From positions 128,001-192,000 of the forward strand of contig CAWFGE010000014.1 of the NCBI GenBank assembly GCA_963815195.1: a DNA stretch of 64,000 nt, read 5' to 3'. Positions 1-10,085 of this stretch are shown piece by piece. How positions within the stretch are numbered: position 1 is the stretch's first letter; each line of letters begins with the position of its first letter. This DNA comes from an uncultured Planctomycetaceae bacterium (lineage in GTDB: Bacteria; Planctomycetota; Planctomycetia; Planctomycetales; Planctomycetaceae). The notes beneath the pieces are model-generated. The model was not told where the DNA came from and did not search any database. It was given only the letters and a program-made list of their open reading frames with translations. Both the position numbers and the translations under genes were made by a program.

Positions 1-368
1 ATTTGCCGCGTCACCGTGAGTGGAAGGCGGTTCCACTCGAACGAGGCCCACGTTTTGCCCATCGGCAATTTCGAGCGCGTGAAGAGCCGCCTGATCCGGC
101 TCTCCCGCCGCGCTTCGCATTCCAGCGTCGTCAGTTCCGAAAGATACTCCAAGTGCGTTTGGTTCTCCCGCGCCGCTTGATCCGCCATCGGGCCGAAATG
201 ATCCCGAAAGCTCGGCAAGCGAAGTTCCCGAAACTGTTCCGTCAGCGGCCTGGTCAGGTCCGGTTTTGGGGGATGCGGCGTTCTCGCTGGGGAACTCGCC
301 GGGCGCGGTTTTCGCGGGGAGGTTTTCTTTGGACTCTGAGATTTTTTCCGGTTCTTGTTCGTAGTCAT
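1..368 (-). CDS. istB: IS21 helper ATPase IstB, N-terminal part (truncated by window edge)
   Basis: GGAG RBS then ATG at 368: MTTNKNRKK...LTEQFRELRLPSFRDHF...AARENQTHLEYLSELTTLECEARRESRIRRLFTRSKLPMGKTWASFEW, a typical IstB N-terminus. Confidence 0.88.
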   Translation of the reverse strand, partial: MTTNKNRKKSQSPKKTSPRKPRPASSPARTPHPPKPDLTRPLTEQFRELRLPSFRDHFGPMADQAARENQTHLEYLSELTTLECEARRESRIRRLFTRSKLPMGKTWASFEWNRLPLTVTRQ

Positions 369-1860
369 CAAACGGACTCTCCATGTCAGGGTGATCAAGC
401 AAACAATCAAACTCCGAGAGCGACGGCGGTTCCACGTCCACGTCCGTGGCTAAGGGAATCTCCGCCGCTTTCGACACCAACAAGCGAATCGACTCGACAT
501 CAATCGACTCGCCCGATTGGATTTTCAAACGCAGCACTTCATGCACGGCGTCTTGACTTTCGTGGGCCGCCAACTCCAACAGTTTGAGATAGGTTTTGTC
601 GGCCACTTTTTGCGAATGCGTTTCCAACAGCCGATCATAGGCCATCCGAAAATAGCTCGTCGGAAACAGCTCCTCGCGATACTTGTAATTCTCGAACGCC
701 CCCGGTTTTCGGACCAAAGAATCAATCACATGCCGATAGTTGATCGAGGCTCCGCCGCTGCCGATCAAACGCGGCATGCGTTGAATGAAAACGCCTTGGT
801 GCGTGACCTCGATGTATTCGGCACTCATCTGGACATCCACCTTTTGGCCGATCAATCGGCTGGGCACCGAGTAGCGGTTGGTTCGCACGCGAATCGTGCT
901 GCTCTTCGCCACGCGAATGCCTTGAAGCCTTTCATCCGTATCCAGCCGATGATCCGGCAGGCGGGCCAAAAACTCTTGCTCAAAGGCAAAGCGTTTTTGA
1001 CGATGTTGATTCGTCTTGGCCATCAGGGCTTCCAGGAAACTCACATAGTCTTCGCGGCTGGAAAAATCCCGGCTGCCGCGCAGAAGCAGGGCTTGATCCA
1101 CCCGGTGTTTGAGATGGCCGTTCGAGGATTCCACATCGCCGTTTTCATTGGCGCAACGGGCGTTGGTTTTCTCCGGCTGACTGCCGTAGTGATCCATCAA
1201 CGCCTGGTAGCGTGCGGTATGCGTCTTGCGATCCGAATGGTTGTTGACCGCCGCGCTCAAACTGTCGGTGCGATGCCGCTTCGGCACGCCGCCGAACTCC
1301 CAAAAGGCTTTCTGAATCCCCGCGCTCAAAGCCTCAAACGATTCGGAAAAACAGAGCGAAACCGACTCCACGTTCGAGTAGGTCAGCACGCAATGAAACA
1401 GCGTATGATCGAAACGCTGCCCGGCGATCTTCACGCCCAGATCGTTCATCACCGTGAAATCGCTGGCCGCCAACCGGCCCGGATGGTGCACCTGCTCGAA
1501 CATCACCGGCTTTCCCGGCCCCGAAAGGCTTCGCCATTTCGCCACCCGCCGCTCAAAAGTTCGCCGGGTGGAATTGGGAAACTGCCCCGAGTATTTCTCC
1601 TGGAGCCATTCAAAGAGCGTCTTGGCTTTGAGGCGCGGTTCCGCTTCCAAGCGGGCTTGGACTTCGTCCCACACCCTCTCAAAGGGATCGACGCGTGTTC
1701 GGTACTCCCGGGGCTTTTTCCGCTCCGAGGGCAACCGCCCGTCATCCCGGTACTTCCGCCCGGTTTTTTCATCCATGCCACTCATCCTTGCCGAGGCAGC
1801 GAGAGAGAGTCCCTTGTCGAGCAATCGCCGCAGTTCCAAAACTTGTCCATTGGTGATCAT
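1..1860 (-). CDS. istA: IS21 transposase IstA (no stop codon inside window)
   Basis: Manual translation: GGAGG RBS at 1866-1870, ATG at 1860, MITNGQVLELRRLLDKGLSLAASARMSGMDEKTGRKY (HTH), then SDFT, HRTDSLSAAV and NENGDVESSNGHLK (DDE core), and NRYSVPSRLIG. Absent from the ORF track because the frame stays open to position 1. Confidence 0.92.
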   Translation of the reverse strand, partial: MITNGQVLELRRLLDKGLSLAASARMSGMDEKTGRKYRDDGRLPSERKKPREYRTRVDPFERVWDEVQARLEAEPRLKAKTLFEWLQEKYSGQFPNSTRRTFERRVAKWRSLSGPGKPVMFEQVHHPGRLAASDFTVMNDLGVKIAGQRFDHTLFHCVLTYSNVESVSLCFSESFEALSAGIQKAFWEFGGVPKRHRTDSLSAAVNNHSDRKTHTARYQALMDHYGSQPEKTNARCANENGDVESSNGHLKHRVDQALLLRGSRDFSSREDYVSFLEALMAKTNQHRQKRFAFEQEFLARLPDHRLDTDERLQGIRVAKSSTIRVRTNRYSVPSRLIGQKVDVQMSAEYIEVTHQGVFIQRMPRLIGSGGASINYRHVIDSLVRKPGAFENYKYREELFPTSYFRMAYDRLLETHSQKVADKTYLKLLELAAHESQDAVHEVLRLKIQSGESIDVESIRLLVSKAAEIPLATDVDVEPPSLSEFDCLLDHPDMESPFDDYEQEPEKISESKENLPAKTAPGEFPSENAASPKTGPDQAADGTVSGTSLAELSGSFRPDGGSSGAGEPNALGVSFGTDDAGMRSAAGEPDQAALHALEIADGQNVGLVRVEPPSTHGDAAN

Positions 1861-2058
1861 CACAACCTCCGTGAAAACGAGAAGCTGCCATGATGACCTG
1901 AACGGAACCTCCAGGGAAATCTAATTGTCGCTGAAAGAAGAATTGCGAGCAGAGAACCCGCGGAAATTCACACCAAACCCGGAAATCCAATCGCCGCCAA
2001 ACGGGAAAAGTAGTTGTCGTTAGACACGCAGTTCAGCAGTGCATCGCTCGCCTCGATG

Positions 2059-5000
2059 CTATTCGCTTTTTTCCTCGCTGACACCACCTTCAACGCCTGA
2101 TAGTTCTTCCAGGTCCGTATTTTTGAAATGAGGACCAATCAACCGAGACACAGTGGCCGAAATCGAACGAACTCGGCCGGCCACCCACGGTTCCGAATGT
2201 GGTGCCATCTCCTGCATATTCGCACGCCAAGTACTGACCGCACTTACCCATTCGGTCCATCGTCCGGACTCGGCGAGCCGCTGCACCGCACTTCCGGCAC
2301 CCGCGTTGACCGACATCTGCAGAACACGCATTGCCAGGAGGCGAACCCTTTCAGGATCACTGAGCCCCTCGATGGCATATGTGAGCAGGTGTGGAAGGCG
2401 AATGGACCAATTGGCGATCTGATGCTGCTGGAACTCAGCGCACGCCTCTAAGAGCGGGTCCACGACAATCTCAGATGCACTTGCCAGAAACTCCACCACA
2501 TCATCCGTCTGTTCCAACCACTTCGCGAACGTCTCATCGTATGCTGTCGTCGAATTGACGAGGTCCTTCAATGCGAGAGCGAGCAAATGTTGTACGTGCG
2601 GAGGGAGTTGAGAGAACCGATCGAGATAAGATGCAACCTGTTTAGGGTCCGACAGTTCTTTGCGAAAGGCTAGTAGACCGACGAGTTGCTCACTGACTTC
2701 GTGCGGCCCGTACCCTTCAACGGTACAGAGAAATTCCAGCCCTTCATTCTCCTGAAAAGCAAATGGAACTTCTGCATCGCCCCAGGGCTGTGCAAGATGG
2801 CTTGTCACGAGATAGCTGTGAAGCATGTTTGCAATGGTTTGCTGGACCGCGTTTGGAATTCCCGGTAGCTGCGGTAAGGATTCTGCAGCCAAACCCAGAT
2901 TTGTTAGAAGAGACATGGCCCACACGGACTGTAATTGGAGTGTCGCGTACCTCATCGGTGAAGGGATAACCGGAGAGCGGGCAACGGTCCACCGAAAATA
3001 GGCGGACCGCCAATGCGGCAGCACAATTTCTCGCAATGCCCATTCCGCATTCCTCTCACTTTTTCCCAAGAGTTCTCCAACCTTCGCCGCAAGCCACCAC
3101 GCATAACAGGCAATGGCTTCCCCGTGCTGAGTGGGGTGAATTGCTTCGATGTGATAAGCAAAATGCGATGCCAGTTCGCAGGATAGTCGCCAACGTGCAC
3201 TGGTTTGCGGCAACTCCTTGGCAGTGTCATCCGGGTTCAGGATGTTGGACGCTTCGCTCCAGAATTGCTCCCACTCGTCGACTGGCCGCACCTGCGGGAC
3301 GTGCAAGGCGACTGTAACGGCATGATAGCGTGCAATAGGGTTGATTTGTCGCTCGGCCCATTTCCACACGTCTGCCCAACTCACTTTGTTATCCTGGTGC
3401 GCGGATATCCATAAGGTTACAAGCCGAGCAGCGCTGAGATCGTTCGACAGCGGGACATACCCGCAACGCTGCAAGTAGCCTGTGAGTGCATCATCAAGGG
3501 CCGGGTGTTTCGCGAGATCCTGAATCCAGGAAATGATCTCCTGCCGCTGCTCGGAGGGGTGCCATACATGTGGCCGATAATTGACCAGAGTCTCAAAACT
3601 GGGGTTCATCACTTCGCCGACGTAATGGTTTATCCCCTCCTTGTAGTTTGCAGCCAAGCATTGACGAAGACAGGTTTGGATACCGAATAGATCAATCCGT
3701 ACCGTTTCGGCTGCGGTGGTCGCCGCACCTCGCCATCTATCCTCTTCCATTGAGGCAATATCAGCGTACGCGTCCTTCAAAATATTTAAGGTGTGTGACG
3801 TCAGCCACGGGTATTCCGACTCTCCTGCGGCGATCAGGTAGACGAGCGCGGCCCGGCGTAACTCAGCCTCTGGGCGAAACAGAAGACTGTCTACTTCGAT
3901 GACAGATACGCTTTCTTCCTCAGGAATAAAGACGAGTCCCCCTGGTCCACCGAGGTTCTGCGTGGATTGACTTGCTTCGCGCAGCATGTCAGCAAGGCCC
4001 TCAGGAAGGGGAGGCGGCGTGGCGTCTTCCAATAAACCGAGGGCCTTGAACCGCGAAAATGCCAGTGCGTCGAGTCGACCTTCCTTGAGGTGGAACAGCG
4101 TATTTTGCATCATCAGGTTGCAGAATGCCATTTCACCTTCCGGCTCGACTCCAAGCGTATCTTCTTTATCCATCAACACTTTGATGGCGTTGGCCGCTTC
4201 AGCTAAATACTGATCTTCACTAATCCCAAGAGCCTCGGCTAGGGTCCGCAGGGCTCGATTTGCACGGCCCCGGTCATGAATGCTCGTGAATTGGACCATC
4301 GCCATGCTTAAAACAGAGAGTCGCTCCCTCTGGGCAATATTGTAGCCGATTTGGTTGTACCATAGCCCTCGAGGGCAAGAGGGGATCAGCTCCTCTCCAA
4401 CCCACATCGTCAGAACTACACAGGCTTCCTCAGAGAATTTTCCGTCACTCCAAACCTTAGCGAGAAACGAGGCTGTGGAATTCATCCAGGCGGTTACGTA
4501 TTTGATTGCCATCGGCATCGGTGGATCGGACTGCTCTGGGCCACAGTGTAGGCCGGGATCTCGCAATGAGTCATGCAGATAGAAGGCAGCGTCGAGCAGG
4601 GCGGGTCCCGGTAAATTCTCTGCGGACTCTTCAGCCCACGCATAGAGGATCTCCGACGACGGTACCAGGAACCGATACCGCCATTTCATCAACTGGTGAA
4701 AATCCCGAGCAGCGGAAACTGCATCATACGTTCCACATCTCTGCATACCGAGTACCACACAATCGGACCCACAGGCGAGAAGAGGGCCGTTCGTCTCATC
4801 GTGGGACGCTAGAACTTGGAGAACACGATCATCGGCAAGAAGTGGATATCTGAGGTGTTGCGCAAGGCGGATCGAGTCGAGGAAGAGTACATCGTCCTCC
4901 TCTGTATCCGGGTTCTCACTCGGCTCTGGAGGTGCCGGTAGAGGTTTCCAACTGATCTTGCCACGGTCAGCCAAGTCAGTAACAGTCTGCCACAGTTCGT

Positions 5001-7505
5001 CGTGAAGTTGCCGCGCAGAGCGAGCGGACTCATGTGCCCGCAGCTCCGAAAGCAGTTCCTCATATTCTGTAGCCCGGATGCAAATCGACAGCGCACTGAT
5101 TACCTCTTCGAAGACGGCCTGATTAGAAATCTGTCGTAAGGTCATCAAGCTAACAAGGACGGTGTCTCCTAATTGAAGTTCGGGGTGCACCGCATCAACC
5201 GCCGATGGCCTGTGGGCGACCCTAGACAGTTCCGCGAGGGCCGCTGGCGTGACCTTCTGTGTGGTTTTCAGGAGCGGAAGGAGGTCTTGCAGTCGGTAAA
5301 CGTGGTTCTCCCGATCGTCGGAATACTCATCTAGTTCGATTCCGCTCTCCGGCCACTGCGATTCAACACGAATTCGGCGTTGCTCAATACTCTTCCGGAT
5401 TGCAAGAAGCTCTTGCTCGCGGGAGGGCTGGTGCTGCGCAAATCGATCGGCATCACGGACATGAAGAAGGCCATAGCTGGCTGGGAGGATGATGCAGTCG
5501 AAGTGCTCTGCCGCTCTCTCCAGTGCATCGAGCTTGAAAAGAGTCAGGAGGGCAGTCAGATCGGCAACCACATGAGTGCCTGCCGGCGGAGCGGTCAGTT
5601 CATGCAGGAGTTTGCCCATTGGTGTACTTAGACCAGTGAAACTATTCGTCGCATAGACTGAGAATGCCGCTCGCGTCAGCGGCTCTTCTGATAACCATTT
5701 AAGTTCTTGCGTATGAAGAGTCCACGCCCATGCTGGAGCATTTCCTAGGGAGTCCTCAGCGAAAAGCCACGTCATTCGTCCAGCGATTAACGCCCGCTGC
5801 AGAGCTTCTCGACGGCTCTGAAAATTCCTGCCATGCTCAAGTATCTGCTCGATTGTCCCTTCCTGGAGCAATTCCATTGGGATCTTTCCCTCGCGGCGCA
5901 GTTCCAGGATCCTCGCAAAAGCCTCATGTGCGAGCCGATCATTACCAGCGGCGTAACCACGTTGCATGTAGCTGAAGAGAAATCTTGGATCGTCCCAATG
6001 GTCCGGTGCAATAGCCTCGAGCAACTGAAAGGCATCAGCCGGCTTAGTATCGGCTACCAGAAGCTCGCTAAGGAAGAGAATGGCTTCAAGCGGAGCATCC
6101 TCCGCGTCGCATACGGGCTTCAATACCTCGATTGCCTTAGCGGTTCGAGCTGTTCGTGCTAGGGCTTGTGCAAGCCACATCCGGTAGTCCCGATTCGAAG
6201 AATTCAGTTCGACCAAGCGCTTGAGGTAGGTCGCCGCTTGTACGTGGTCACCAAGTTGCACAAGAGCCCACACCAGCGTCCTCAGGTGCTCTTCATTGTC
6301 GGGTTTTTCTTCCAATAGCTGTATTAGTCCTCGAATCGCGCTCTGATATCGACGACGGTCGATCGACGCCTTGATGCTCCTGCGAACCACATCTGGATGC
6401 GGCACGAGTTCGCTGGCCTTCTCCCATGCGTGTACAGCACCTGCCTCGTCTCCGCTTCGTTCACAGAACTGAGCATGTGCCTGCCACCACACTCCGTCCG
6501 ATTCGTTACGCACGGCGTCGAGCTGCTCCTTCGCCTGCGGAAGGTTACCATCGACCAAGTGTTTCATGGCATGCAAGAGACCGAGGAACCGACTACCGCC
6601 CGGCCTGAGACGTGTGACGACCTCGATGGCCTTATCAATTTGAGCAGCCCCGCACCGAACACTAGTCTCGAAGAGACTGATACATACCGATTCCTTCGCG
6701 TCCTCGCTGGTTGCATTGGCGGAGAGTTCCACTAGAGCCTTGAACGCGGCTTCGGGTTTGTCGAATAGATCTCGCTCCATAATCGCCGCCAGAAGCGCGG
6801 CCTGAAAGTCGTTGGGGTGCTCCACACGCATTCGGTTGGGCAGTCCCTCGGGTGTGATCTGTATAAGCCCTCGGAGACACAGCTCGGCTACAATCAATGG
6901 TACTGGCACGTACTTCACCAGCCAGTGAGTATACTGAGAAAGGAATTCCTGGTCTCTGGTGATCCAGCGCAATACACGGCATAGGTTACCGCACTGAACT
7001 CATACTCGCCTACGATCTTTCGGTTAGCGCGTACTGAAGAGAGCAACGGATCAAGGATTTCGATGACAGTCCTCGCCAGTTCGACGTCAGTGTCTGCCCA
7101 CGGCTCAGGATCTAGTAGTGAATGGCCCGGATGCTGCTTCCGCCAGCCCTCGATGACACCCTCAGCGAACCCGAGGCGAGATAATCGCATAACGACAAGG
7201 CTGCAGGAAGCATCCGCCTGTTCCACGAGGTATTGTGCGCGGGTAATGTCTCCCAGGAATGCAAAGGCAACAATGGCAAGGTGAATCCACTCGTCGTCGA
7301 CGCGCCGGTCACGGATAAGGTCTACAGCAACTTGATGGCGGCTAGCGCGCAGCAAGATCGCGAGGGCAGCGCGCATGCGTATTGGGTCCGTGAGAGGGCC
7401 TAGCAGCTGCAATGCGGCATCGGGTCCACTGGTGAGTTCCGCCTCTAGCGCTTTCGCGGCGATAAGCTTGGCGTGTTGCTCGTCAAATTGATTAGTCAGT
7501 GACAC
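2059..7505 (-). CDS. Very large TPR-repeat + PIN-like domain protein (~1,800 aa; one apparent frameshift near 6965)
   Basis: ORFs 6915-7505 and 2059-6972 join if one base is added at TAT TGC GC^ TGG ATC ACC. TPR-like helices (AVHAWEKASELVP, AATYLKRLVELNSSN). PIN-like motifs VVADLTALLTL...IILPASY (~5480-5571) and DSIRLAQHLRYPLLADDRVLQ (~4820-4880). AAGGAGG RBS lies 6 nt before GTG 7505. Confidence 0.7.
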
Positions 7506-9021
7506 ACTCAGCCTCCTTAAGCAATTCCTGCAGCCGCGTCACGTCGGGTACTTCTCCGGATTGTTTCTCGTTTAGGAGGTGTTTCTGCTCAAGCCTCACT
7601 AGGAGGAGCCACCCATGCCGTACGATTGCTCCCTTGCGGGATACGGTCCTCAGCAGTTTCTCCAACTCAACGGCCGATGGGCCGGTTTCCTTCCAGCGAC
7701 CACTCTCTATTAAGGTGTCTACTCGCTCATTCAACTGCTGGATTTGGACGTACTGAGGAGCCAAGGGTTGGAGTTCCGGGACAATGATCAATGGGAAATC
7801 GAGTTCCGGAGGCACGCCGACGCCTTCGGAAGCCACCGGTTTGAATGCGATGGTCGGAGATACTTGGTGCTTCACTGGCCCAGCTTCCCCAACCTGTTCC
7901 GCGGATACTTGGTCTGTCGAGTGTTTGGACGAGTCAATCTTCGGTGGAATAGCTGGCGATTCGACGGAGGTGGAAGCTGCGGCGGTGGGAACCGCCTGGA
8001 CTGGCGGAAAAGTTTCCAATTCCTGAAGCGCAGTCGGGTGGAGGTGCTCAATGACGGCCCGAGTGTAGGCCGCCGCAATCAAAGCGGCGTAGGAGTGCCA
8101 GTCATCGTTTTTCGTTGAATTGCAGTAATCACAGGTACCACGGACGACGAGATAACCTACATTTGCGACCCAGCTCGCGTCGGCCACTCCGGAGCCTTCC
8201 ATTTCAACAGCTCTGATGTTCCAGCGATTCCGTAGTGCATCGCGTTTTTTCGGGTCAGCAAGCACGATGTTGGCCGCGCCAATGGCACCGCGGAACACGC
8301 GAGGTTTGCCATGCCGACGATCGAGATCCTTTGGATGTGGGACGGCATCTCCCGTTCCATCCGGCGTATCAATTAGTCTATCCTTTTTCGGTGCCGGGCG
8401 TTTCCACGACCGAGAACTCTCGAAGCGTCTCAGAAACTCGTTTATTTTCTTGTCCCAATCCCGGAGATCCTGGTGCCCCAATAACCTCTCACGGGAATGC
8501 ATATTTCCCACAGCCGCCAGCAGTTGAGGGCACGGTGGCCGCGCTGTTCCGCGGAACTCGAACCCAGTGAACGGATCGTCGTTTGTTCGGTGGGGGTCGC
8601 GCTGTTTTCCAAAATCGTACTGAATGATGCCGGGCGGACCACTCACGACAATGTCCCCCAGACGGACATGATCCTCCGGCTTACCTGGGTGCGGCACTGC
8701 ACCCGCGATGCCGCACATGATCAGTGATTCAATCGCTTCGCAGTGTTGCAGGAGGATGTTCGCTGCGATCGCCGCCGCGGTGTTTCCCATTGACGGTAGA
8801 CGCGTAATGGCGACCACGTGCTCCCCCCCGTGCTTGGAGGGAATAAAGCACAGCCAGCAGGTGAGTGCACCGGAGGTTGAGCGTTTCTGCCTCTCAATTC
8901 CCTGCTGGTCGGGGTCAAAAATGCCCAGACAGGCCGAGTATTCCTCTTCCAGCGCGGTTAATACCCCAATAGTGACGTGCCGAAACTCCAACTGTGGTTC
9001 CTCGGAATACTGGCGTAACAT
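7492..9021 (-). CDS. PNP_UDP_1 / MTA-SAH nucleosidase-fold protein with Pro/Ser-rich linker and small helical C-terminal domain
   Basis: Motifs IGVLTALEEE, MGNTAAA, GIAGAVP, VRLGDIVVS, IIQYDFGK, AVEMEGSG and VVRGTCDYCNSTKNDDWHSYAALIAAAY in aa ~15-330. Confidence 0.88.
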   Translation of the reverse strand: MLRQYSEEPQLEFRHVTIGVLTALEEEYSACLGIFDPDQQGIERQKRSTSGALTCWLCFIPSKHGGEHVVAITRLPSMGNTAAAIAANILLQHCEAIESLIMCGIAGAVPHPGKPEDHVRLGDIVVSGPPGIIQYDFGKQRDPHRTNDDPFTGFEFRGTARPPCPQLLAAVGNMHSRERLLGHQDLRDWDKKINEFLRRFESSRSWKRPAPKKDRLIDTPDGTGDAVPHPKDLDRRHGKPRVFRGAIGAANIVLADPKKRDALRNRWNIRAVEMEGSGVADASWVANVGYLVVRGTCDYCNSTKNDDWHSYAALIAAAYTRAVIEHLHPTALQELETFPPVQAVPTAAASTSVESPAIPPKIDSSKHSTDQVSAEQVGEAGPVKHQVSPTIAFKPVASEGVGVPPELDFPLIIVPELQPLAPQYVQIQQLNERVDTLIESGRWKETGPSAVELEKLLRTVSRKGAIVRHGWLLLVRLEQKHLLNEKQSGEVPDVTRLQELLKEAECVTD

Positions 9022-9580
9022 TACGGCAGGCTCCTCCGAGATTACCGTTCAAACACTCGGAATTGTTAGGGAGAATTCCTCGCCAGAAGATGTTGAATCG
9101 ACGAGAAACACGCATTGTCATTGGATCAGTGATGATGCCTTAGCATACCGCAAAACTCCGAAGCCACACAACTTCTTGCATCTCAATTTGATTCCAATCC
9201 GTCCCAAAAATACGGCTAATCCCTCGTTTTCCAGGACAAAACCGACTTTTCGACCGCCGATTTACCCACAGATTCAGGTGAGGAGGTAGAATGTTAGCGA
9301 CGGCAATACTATTTGACCCAACACAATGCTTCGCGACGGCACGATCAAGTTGGATGGAAAGGAACAGCAGACTGATCGACACGCGGGGAAGTCGGAAGAC
9401 GATCGATTCTCAATCGAACTGCACGACGGCCTATCTATTCTCAAGCCAAGTCAGTTAGGCAAGGGTTCGGACCGGTGCAAAATTATGAACCCCGAACCCA
9501 CTGGTTTACTGGCCGGTTGTTAACCTCTGGGGGCTGTTTACCAAGAGAGTCCGAGAGTTCGTACGCGGATTTTTGCGACC

Positions 9581-9609
9581 CCGAAGCGAACCCCTAGGGT
9601 TCGCTTCGG
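9581..9609. repeat. Perfect 13-bp inverted repeat (hairpin) near island end
   Basis: ccgaagcgaaccc-cta-gggttcgcttcgg. Confidence 0.8.
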
Positions 9610-9941
9610 ACCCCAAAAAACAATTGCCTAACCCGAGAGCGCGGGGTAGGATGGAAAGATTGCCGAAAGGCTAGAGTCCACGCGGGTTAAGGCAAAACGC
9701 CAAGCGCTCTCGCATCGGGCGTCTTGAGTCAACCAGTGGGTACGGGGATTCCGTACAAAAACTTTTAGCTCCACGGCAAGGACGCGAATCTTGAACCTAC
9801 CGGTTAAGAGCTCAACTGGGTGATTCAAAATGTAGTAAAATGTAGTTAATTGAACGGAAGTTTTCCAAATATGACTGAATTTGACCGGAATTCGATTAGG
9901 ATCAAGAATCCATGAAAACGCTGGATTAGTAGAGTTTCTGC

Positions 9942-10085
9942 TTACTCGGTGGTGGTATTCTGATACTTATCGTCGACGAGAATCAGCAGGATGTTCGGTT
10001 TTCGGGCGGGCTCCGCGCCGTCGGCCGGACCTGGGCGGACGATCCCATAACACAACGCGAGCAACACACAACAAAACCAGCGCAT
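9942..10085 (-). pseudogene. 5' stub of a secreted sulfatase gene, interrupted right after the DD motif
   Basis: MRWFCCVLLALCYGIVRPGPADGAEPARKPNILLILVDD|KYQNTTTE*: signal peptide plus the sulfatase N-terminal motif PN(I/V)xxIxxDD, then unrelated sequence and a stop. RBS-like GAAAGGG upstream. Confidence 0.8.

What the first reader, a model, noticed from the sequence alone, without database searches (positions are those of the whole stretch)
2059..9021. Candidate undescribed two-gene anti-phage system: nucleosidase (PNP) effector coupled to a giant TPR-PIN protein
Seen: two co-oriented genes overlapping by 14 nt, with an AAGGAGG RBS 6 nt before the second start. They sit in an island that is visibly more AT-rich than its flanks (by eye), between an IS21 and a broken sulfatase. 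Gene 1 is a PNP_UDP_1-fold enzyme. Gene 2 is ~1,800 aa with TPR repeats, a PIN-like region and ~850 aa of unassigned, probably helical, C-terminus; I see no Walker A motif. Established: PNP-fold ATP nucleosidases act as immune effectors (CBASS Cap17, Detocs DtcC), and large TPR+PIN proteins are predicted conflict systems (TPR-GreAB-C-PIN type). Inference: the TPR scaffold senses a phage protein and activates nucleotide depletion and/or RNA cleavage. I do not recognise this pairing (no cyclase, NTPase, kinase or obvious GreA/B-C domain) as a named system.
Basis: partly seen in the sequence, partly recalled or inferred. Interest (0 to 1): 0.85.

Follow-up and report, generated by a model that had tools for sequence, protein, structure and literature searches.

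The report
Three-part PIN defence machine, swappable effector
These two genes look like a mobile bacterial anti-virus system in which an interchangeable killing enzyme (here a likely ATP-destroying nucleosidase) clips onto a giant scaffold; it is a relative of an already predicted family but has swapped that family's sensor for a doubled nuclease domain and a large domain of unknown structure.

Summary
Gene 1 (509 aa) is a PNP-fold nucleosidase with its catalytic residues intact, plus a 90-aa helical cap. Gene 2 (1,815 aa if read through) is TPR, HTH, two tandem PIN domains, a helical tail and a ~670-aa module. The break at 6966 is probably an assembly error: one contig of a public run carries the missing base.

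The pairing is real and conserved, but it is not a new kind. Kaur et al. 2021 list PNPase among the effectors of TPR-GreA/B-C-PIN (TGP) systems, and one TGP system (Bab/Agp) has been shown to block phage.

What differs from TGP: no GreA/B-C domain; a duplicated PIN; and a C-terminal module with no Pfam family and no clear fold match, which follows the PIN gene in 27 of 32 related loci. Effector, scaffold and module occur in all four fused or split forms. The effector is swapped (PNP, alpha/beta-hydrolase, restriction nuclease, SMEK, hydrophobic helices), even between 86%-identical cores.

Best reading: an auto-inhibited scaffold that, on infection, switches on a tethered ATP nucleosidase and aborts infection. 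New variant of a known kind; untested experimentally.

The parts
7492..9021 (-). Gene 1, 509 aa: effector gene (PNP nucleosidase, low-complexity linker, helical cap)
8032..8979 (-). PNP_UDP_1 (MtnN-like) domain; E27, E273-M274-E275, R294 and D298 retained
   Evidence: Pfam E 2e-13; closest solved structures are MTA/SAH nucleosidases; conserved in 43-47 of 47 rows
7495..7761 (-). ~90-aa helical cap, homologous to the segment just before the TPR array in fused homologues; inferred docking piece
   Evidence: hhalign 93.7%, E 2e-7; eight control segments at most 1.4%; cap HMM hits fused P0016, E 4e-15
9031..9037 (-). GGAGGAG ribosome-binding site of gene 1
   Evidence: sequence
7512..7518 (-). AAGGAGG ribosome-binding site of gene 2, inside gene 1; 14-nt overlap suggests translational coupling
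   Evidence: sequence; overlap conserved
2059..7505 (-). Gene 2, 1,815 aa if read through: TPR solenoid, HTH, PIN1, PIN2, helical tail, C-module
6966..6967 (-). One-base frameshift, probably an assembly error
   Evidence: one contig of run X1 (depth 3.5) has an extra base here; 7 intact homologues
5860..7505 (-). TPR solenoid (~545 aa)
5593..5853 (-). Helical HTH-like segment (PF24407 HTH_upst_double_PIN in homologues) and a beta-hairpin; no GreA/B-C domain here
5209..5574 (-). PIN domain 1; D471 invariant (50 of 50), E549 46 of 50
4729..5163 (-). PIN domain 2; D714-D715-R716 invariant (50 of 50); first-strand Asp not conserved (Ser here; Asp in 22 of 50)
4171..4728 (-). Helical tail after the PINs; its start is shared with TGP proteins
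2140..4140 (-). C-module, ~670 aa, almost all helical, no family; usually a separate third gene
1..2026 (-). Right part of an IS21-like element, between the system and an McrB-like gene (context)
9451..10085 (-). End of the carrying element and the cut 5' stub of a sulfatase gene (junction near 9974) (context)

Best explanation
An anti-phage (abortive-infection) system of the TGP lineage, built from three modules that act as one machine. Shown by sequence: the parts, their fixed order, their fusion in every combination, and exchange of the effector. Inferred: (1) gene 1 docks on the start of gene 2 through its helical cap, which completes the solenoid; (2) the scaffold (TPR, double PIN, C-module) keeps the nucleosidase off; (3) a phage protein or RNA is sensed by the TPR array and/or the C-module, which takes the place of the missing RNA-polymerase-binding GreA/B-C domain; (4) the scaffold changes shape or clusters, the PNP domains switch on and cut adenine from ATP/dATP, and the infected cell stops; (5) the two PINs form one pseudo-dimeric site that cuts or binds RNA as part of this response. 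Odds that it is a defence system: about 0.8; that this effector-release mechanism is broadly right: about 0.55.
For: Order effector-cap, TPR-2xPIN, C-module is fixed; the C-module follows directly in 27 of 32 loci found with TPR/PIN patterns, and both foreign genomes found from the C-module side have TPR-2xPIN upstream (2 of 2). All four fusion states occur. The cap is the pre-TPR segment of fused forms. Effector slot in 24 loci with the 5' side visible: PNP 11, alpha/beta-hydrolase 5, hydrophobic helices 3, Mrr-like 2, SMEK 1, not callable 2. L021 (hydrolase) and L040 (PNP) have 86% identical cores; effectors are mixed within well-supported clades (quick tree). Other relatives of this PNP carry TIR, SEFIR, NB-ARC or EAD7/8 domains. 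Homology to TGP: hhalign 96.9%. Patchy: C-module in 3 of 401 genomes of the phylum, own genome included. Neighbours include SIR2-Argonaute, type I RM, Old, CBASS, Dnd and Hma. Precedent: Cap17/DtcC ATP nucleosidases (10.1101/2023.01.24.525353) and Bab/Agp (10.1101/2024.11.07.622273).
Against: No experiment. Defence enrichment is modest: PADLOC hits in 9 of 24 loci against 4 of 13 random control regions (p 0.73 raw); only after dropping the controls' generic kinase and ABC-ATPase cross-hits, after the fact, is it 8 of 23 against 0 of 13 (p 0.03), and the control comes from one genome. The window's McrB-like neighbour had no PADLOC hit at 1e-25. The PNP scores as well against housekeeping MtnN (E 3.5e-18, far below cut-off) as against the CBASS effector model (E 3.5e-16); its place in the Cap17 clade was not treed. 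PIN2 lacks its first Asp in over half of the family. The PIN fold was not confirmed by a fold search, since TPR matches filled both lists.
Confidence: 0.55

Rival explanations
1. The double PIN RNase is the main weapon (first-line cleavage of phage RNA or host tRNA), and the N-terminal effector is only a back-up, as Kaur et al. proposed for TGP.
For: D471 and D714-D715-R716 are invariant in 50 of 50 while the effector varies; many one-gene forms carry only a short hydrophobic N-terminus; PIN residues are needed in DS-3 and DS-5 (PMC13092281).
Against: Neither PIN keeps a full, conserved acidic set on its own; in Bab/Agp the killing is attributed to the separate effector, and the PIN mutant was unstable, so uninformative.
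Confidence: 0.2
2. A toxin-antitoxin-like addiction or anti-plasmid module of the carrying element: one part is toxic and the others neutralise it, with no phage sensing.
For: Carried at the end of a serine-recombinase element; integrase, relaxase, primase or IS genes within 6 kb in 9 of 24 loci; coupled translation.
Against: About 2,300 residues with a TPR solenoid is far beyond known TA modules (own knowledge); the parts are often fused into one chain (21 of 150 representatives); no match on 72,556 plasmids.
Confidence: 0.1
3. The family is real but this copy is dead (true frameshift).
For: The assembly has the break; related loci do decay (L012 split by an IS, L025 shredded); the rescuing contig is single and of depth 3.5, which the tool says may be an error.
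Against: The extra base falls exactly at the break and restores the residue seen in homologues; both halves are equally conserved (57-65% and 48-58% identity to four homologues) with no second lesion in 5.4 kb.
Confidence: 0.12
4. Chance neighbours: a housekeeping MTA/SAH nucleosidase beside an unrelated TPR protein.
For: Best solved-structure and NCBIfam matches are MtnN enzymes.
Against: PNP precedes the scaffold in 11 of 24 loci; direct PNP-TPR-2xPIN fusions exist (P0154, L040); the cap is part of the scaffold.
Confidence: 0.03

Closest known systems
TPR-GreA/B-C-PIN (TGP) conflict systems, Kaur et al. 2021 (PMC8195603; Pfam PF20698)
   Same: Variable N-terminal effector including PNPase, REase and BTLCP; TPR array; HTH, PF20698-type PIN and helical tail in the same order (hhalign 96.9%).
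   Different: No GreA/B-C; PIN duplicated; extra ~670-aa module; often two or three genes, whereas TGP is described as mostly stand-alone genes. The paper's supplement has GreA-less TPR+PIN rows and one 2,304-aa SIR2+TPR+PIN+PIN row that may belong here, but the main-text passages seen describe no such subtype.
Bab/Agp of E. coli ECOR25 (10.1101/2024.11.07.622273)
   Same: Two adjacent genes, effector first, then a TPR-PIN activator; tested anti-phage abortive infection.
   Different: Coupled by an amyloid motif to a membrane-targeting Bell domain, and GreA/B-C is required; here coupling appears to be by a split helical solenoid, the effector is an enzyme and GreA/B-C is missing.
CBASS Cap17 and Detocs DtcC ATP nucleosidases (10.1101/2023.01.24.525353)
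   Same: PNP_UDP_1 effector domain with MtnN-type catalytic residues; PADLOC PN-superfamily effector hit E 3.5e-16.
   Different: No cyclase, no second-messenger sensor domain, no histidine kinase or response regulator in the locus.
Pfam PF24407 HTH_upst_double_PIN
   Same: Hits homologues just upstream of PIN1 (best E 6e-7); the name shows that curators have seen an HTH plus double-PIN architecture.
   Different: A domain entry only; no paper in the held library names it.

Membership tests
TGP (TPR-GreA/B-C-PIN) | TPR array | tested here: met
TGP (TPR-GreA/B-C-PIN) | GreA/B-C domain between TPR and PIN | tested here: not met
   GreA-C profile (24 sequences) against this family: at most 0.6% by hhalign, best HMM score -0.6 bits over 50 members; positive control, three canonical TGP proteins: 92.7%, 73 columns. 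The model shows only helices and one hairpin there.
TGP (TPR-GreA/B-C-PIN) | PF20698-type PIN domain | tested here: met
   E 1.4e-5 in the window (below cut-off), above cut-off in homologues; PIN2 against the canonical TGP profile 93.8% over 140 columns; present twice
TGP (TPR-GreA/B-C-PIN) | Variable N-terminal effector, PNPase among them | tested here: met
TGP (TPR-GreA/B-C-PIN) | Mostly stand-alone gene ending after the PIN and its tail | tested here: not met
   two genes here; a conserved extra module follows in 27 of 32 loci
CBASS with Cap17 | Oligonucleotide cyclase and messenger-binding domain | tested here: not met
   no such family in genes 1-2 or the flanking ORFs
Cap17/DtcC immune PNP clade | PNP domain falls in the defence-associated clade | tested here: inconclusive
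   no tree with Cap17; similar scores to MtnN and to the CBASS effector model; relatives fused to TIR, NB-ARC, EAD
Cap17/DtcC immune PNP clade | ATP nucleosidase activity | not testable with these tools
   catalytic residues kept; substrate needs an assay
Detocs | Histidine kinase sensor and response regulator | tested here: not met
Avs / bacterial NLR | STAND NTPase with Walker A | tested here: not met
   no NTPase family, no Walker A pattern
Bab/Agp | Shared amyloid motif on effector and activator | not tested
   no amyloid predictor run; the shared piece here is predicted helical by homology

The most novel reading that the evidence does not exclude
The ~670-aa C-module is a phage sensor of a fold not yet solved, and the tandem PINs form a single-chain pseudo-dimer that works as an RNA-gated switch rather than a toxin. 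Together they would make an NTPase-free, messenger-free immune platform that assembles from up to three chains by solenoid complementation and fires any effector carrying the 90-residue cap.
Probability: 0.25. Interest if true: 0.8.

Novelty: new variant of a known kind. Interest (0 to 1): 0.55.

Why it matters
The standing model for TGP systems is that they sense hijacked RNA polymerase through GreA/B-C, and Bab/Agp needs that domain. This branch has lost it and gained a second PIN and a constant partner module, so it must sense or be controlled another way, which makes the question testable by comparison. The natural three-gene versions let each module be deleted cleanly. The 90-residue cap predicts a plug-in rule for effectors. 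The C-module is a confident (pLDDT 92) model without a clear match. The pairing of a nucleosidase with a TPR-PIN scaffold itself is not new.

Full report
1. The observation. Both genes, the ribosome-binding site, the 14-nt overlap, the lower GC, the IS21-like element and the cut sulfatase are as described. Gene 2 is in two frames that meet at 6966/6967. Seven homologues of 1,788-1,807 aa are intact, and four of them align on both sides of the break. Of three runs laid, only X1 showed a difference there: one contig, depth 3.5, with one extra base exactly at the break. That is a single shallow contig, and X1 may be the source sample, so the reading 'assembly error' is likely, not proven.

2. Gene 1. 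A PNP_UDP_1 domain (E 2e-13) whose nearest solved relatives are MTA/SAH nucleosidases. The residues that match the MtnN active site (equivalence recalled, aided by the alignments) are kept: E27 in 43, E275 in 47, R294 in 47 and D298 in 46 of 47 rows. After a low-complexity linker comes a 90-aa helical cap, found in 59 of 120 PNP proteins tested (the HMM was built from some of them). The cap is homologous to the segment just before the TPR array in 23 fused proteins (93.7%; controls at most 1.4%). Genes 1 and 2 are therefore one protein split inside its helical solenoid.

3. Gene 2. A model of the homologue P0013 (pLDDT 89) shows a TPR solenoid to about residue 545, a helical HTH-like segment (PF24407 in homologues), one hairpin, two alpha/beta units and a helical tail. 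The two units are homologous to each other (94.4%) and to the PF20698 PIN. D471 in PIN1 and D714-D715-R716 in PIN2 (numbered on the 1,637-aa frame) are invariant in 50 of 50 rows, while the first-strand Asp of PIN2 is present in only 22 of 50. I infer one composite site; it was not checked in three dimensions. GreA/B-C is absent: the profile test that detects it in three canonical TGP proteins finds nothing in this family. The last ~670 aa fold confidently (pLDDT 92) but match no family and no specific structure.

4. The family. An exhaustive search with the C-terminal 1,013 aa gave 645 proteins at E 0.001 or better. Of the 150 listed, 80 are the C-module alone, 21 are one-gene forms of 2,000 aa or more, 13 are TPR-2xPIN alone, 4 are other whole fusions and 32 are partial. 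Of 32 loci found with TPR/PIN patterns, 27 have the C-module directly behind the PIN gene; four contigs end too early and one (L042) is a shredded fragment with nothing recognisable behind it. Both foreign genomes found from the C-module side have the scaffold upstream. Three-gene, both two-gene and one-gene forms all occur. In the 24 loci with the 5' side visible the effector is PNP in 11 (10 separate, 1 fused), alpha/beta-hydrolase in 5, hydrophobic helices in 3, Mrr-like in 2 (weak, E 0.002), SMEK in 1, and not callable in 2. Cores 86% identical carry different effectors, and a quick tree of 34 cores mixes effectors inside clades with 99-100% support (the careful search did not finish). Named hosts include Planctomycetota, Acidobacteriota, Lentisphaerota, Pseudomonadota and Thermodesulfobacteriota. 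It is rare: 3 of 401 genomes of the phylum, own genome included.

5. Context. In the window's genome the system is cargo at the end of an element with Prim-Pol, terminase nuclease, DUF2924 and a serine recombinase, next to an McrB-like gene. Within 6 kb of 24 related loci, 17 of 183 ORFs hit PADLOC at 1e-25 (9 loci: SIR2-Argonaute, type I RM in three, Old, CBASS, Dnd, Hma, a lone methylase), against 4 of 131 ORFs in 4 of 13 random regions of the window's genome. By locus the raw difference is nil (p 0.73); by ORF p 0.04. The four control hits are three kinase-like proteins and an ABC ATPase; without them, and merging L023 with L024, it is 8 of 23 against 0 of 13 (p 0.03). This is supportive but weak, as the exclusion was made after the fact and loci are related.

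6. How it most likely works. Shown: parts, order, fusions, swapping. Inferred: the cap tethers the effector to the scaffold, which holds it off until a phage signal, read by the TPR array or the C-module, releases or clusters it; the PNP then depletes ATP and dATP as Cap17 and DtcC do, and infection aborts. The PIN pair either cuts RNA as a first line or acts as a switch. I put defence at about 0.8 and this mechanism at about 0.55.

7. What is known. PMC8195603 (passages and searches of supplementary file 1 seen) defines TGP systems and names PNPase among 13 effectors. Its table has 40 occurrences of PNPase+TPR (the 26 shown are all GreA/B-C fusions), 359 of TPR+PIN, one row with PIN+PIN and none of PNPase+TPR+PIN (about two occurrences per row). 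10.1101/2024.11.07.622273 (passages) shows that the TGP pair Bab/Agp blocks T5 and needs GreA/B-C. 10.1101/2023.01.24.525353 (passages; supplements closed) shows the ATP nucleosidase activity of Cap17. PMC13092281 (passages) reports unrelated PIN systems DS-3 and DS-5. Seven searches found no description of a GreA-less, double-PIN, three-module branch. It works like TGP but fails the GreA/B-C test, so it is filed as a variant, not a member.

8. Verdict. Real, conserved, probably intact, probably anti-phage. New variant of a known kind; interest 0.55. The new content is the missing sensor, the doubled PIN, the constant partner module and the split-solenoid coupling, not the PNP pairing.

Noticed in passing
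window 9451-10085; G000 C7:6761 and C13:4867: The same element end follows three different sulfatase 5' ends in this genome, each cut at the conserved PNI...DD motif. The element, which carries a serine recombinase, may target sulfatase genes, of which the genome has many (86 tblastn pieces). The other junctions were not found; one literature search found nothing.
   Followed up: partly
L043 (G000 C14:111028-127462), left of the window: Element backbone: dATP/dGTP diphosphohydrolase domain, Prim-Pol primase, ParB-methylase with an intein, amidoligase, GpA terminase nuclease, DUF2924, serine recombinase, then an McrB-like DUF2461-AAA_5 gene with no McrC seen before the IS.
   Followed up: partly
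G000 C9:13279-13701 (L049): The same genome has a second, canonical TPR-GreA/B-C-PIN gene (PF20698 E 7e-24; ORF begins mid-TPR, so possibly broken), beside an IS21-like transposase, a HerA-like ORF (label by eye) and another recombinase copy.
   Followed up: partly
L043:17455-19863 (window 1-1863): The IS21 istA frame runs on for 803 aa, apparently out of frame through istB; possibly another one-base assembly error.
   Followed up: no
P0062, P0064, P0078, P0111, P0114, P0129, P0160; L018, L019: Many one-gene forms start with hydrophobic, often Gly/Ala-rich helices instead of an enzyme, which may be membrane-targeting effectors comparable to Bab (inference).
   Followed up: no
L011:4585-7740: A SIR2-fused long Argonaute and a DEAD helicase lie directly upstream of the three-gene system on the same strand.
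   Followed up: no
L083:3990-7334: A TPR-HTH-single-PIN protein that also lacks GreA/B-C: a possible intermediate between TGP and the double-PIN branch.
   Followed up: partly
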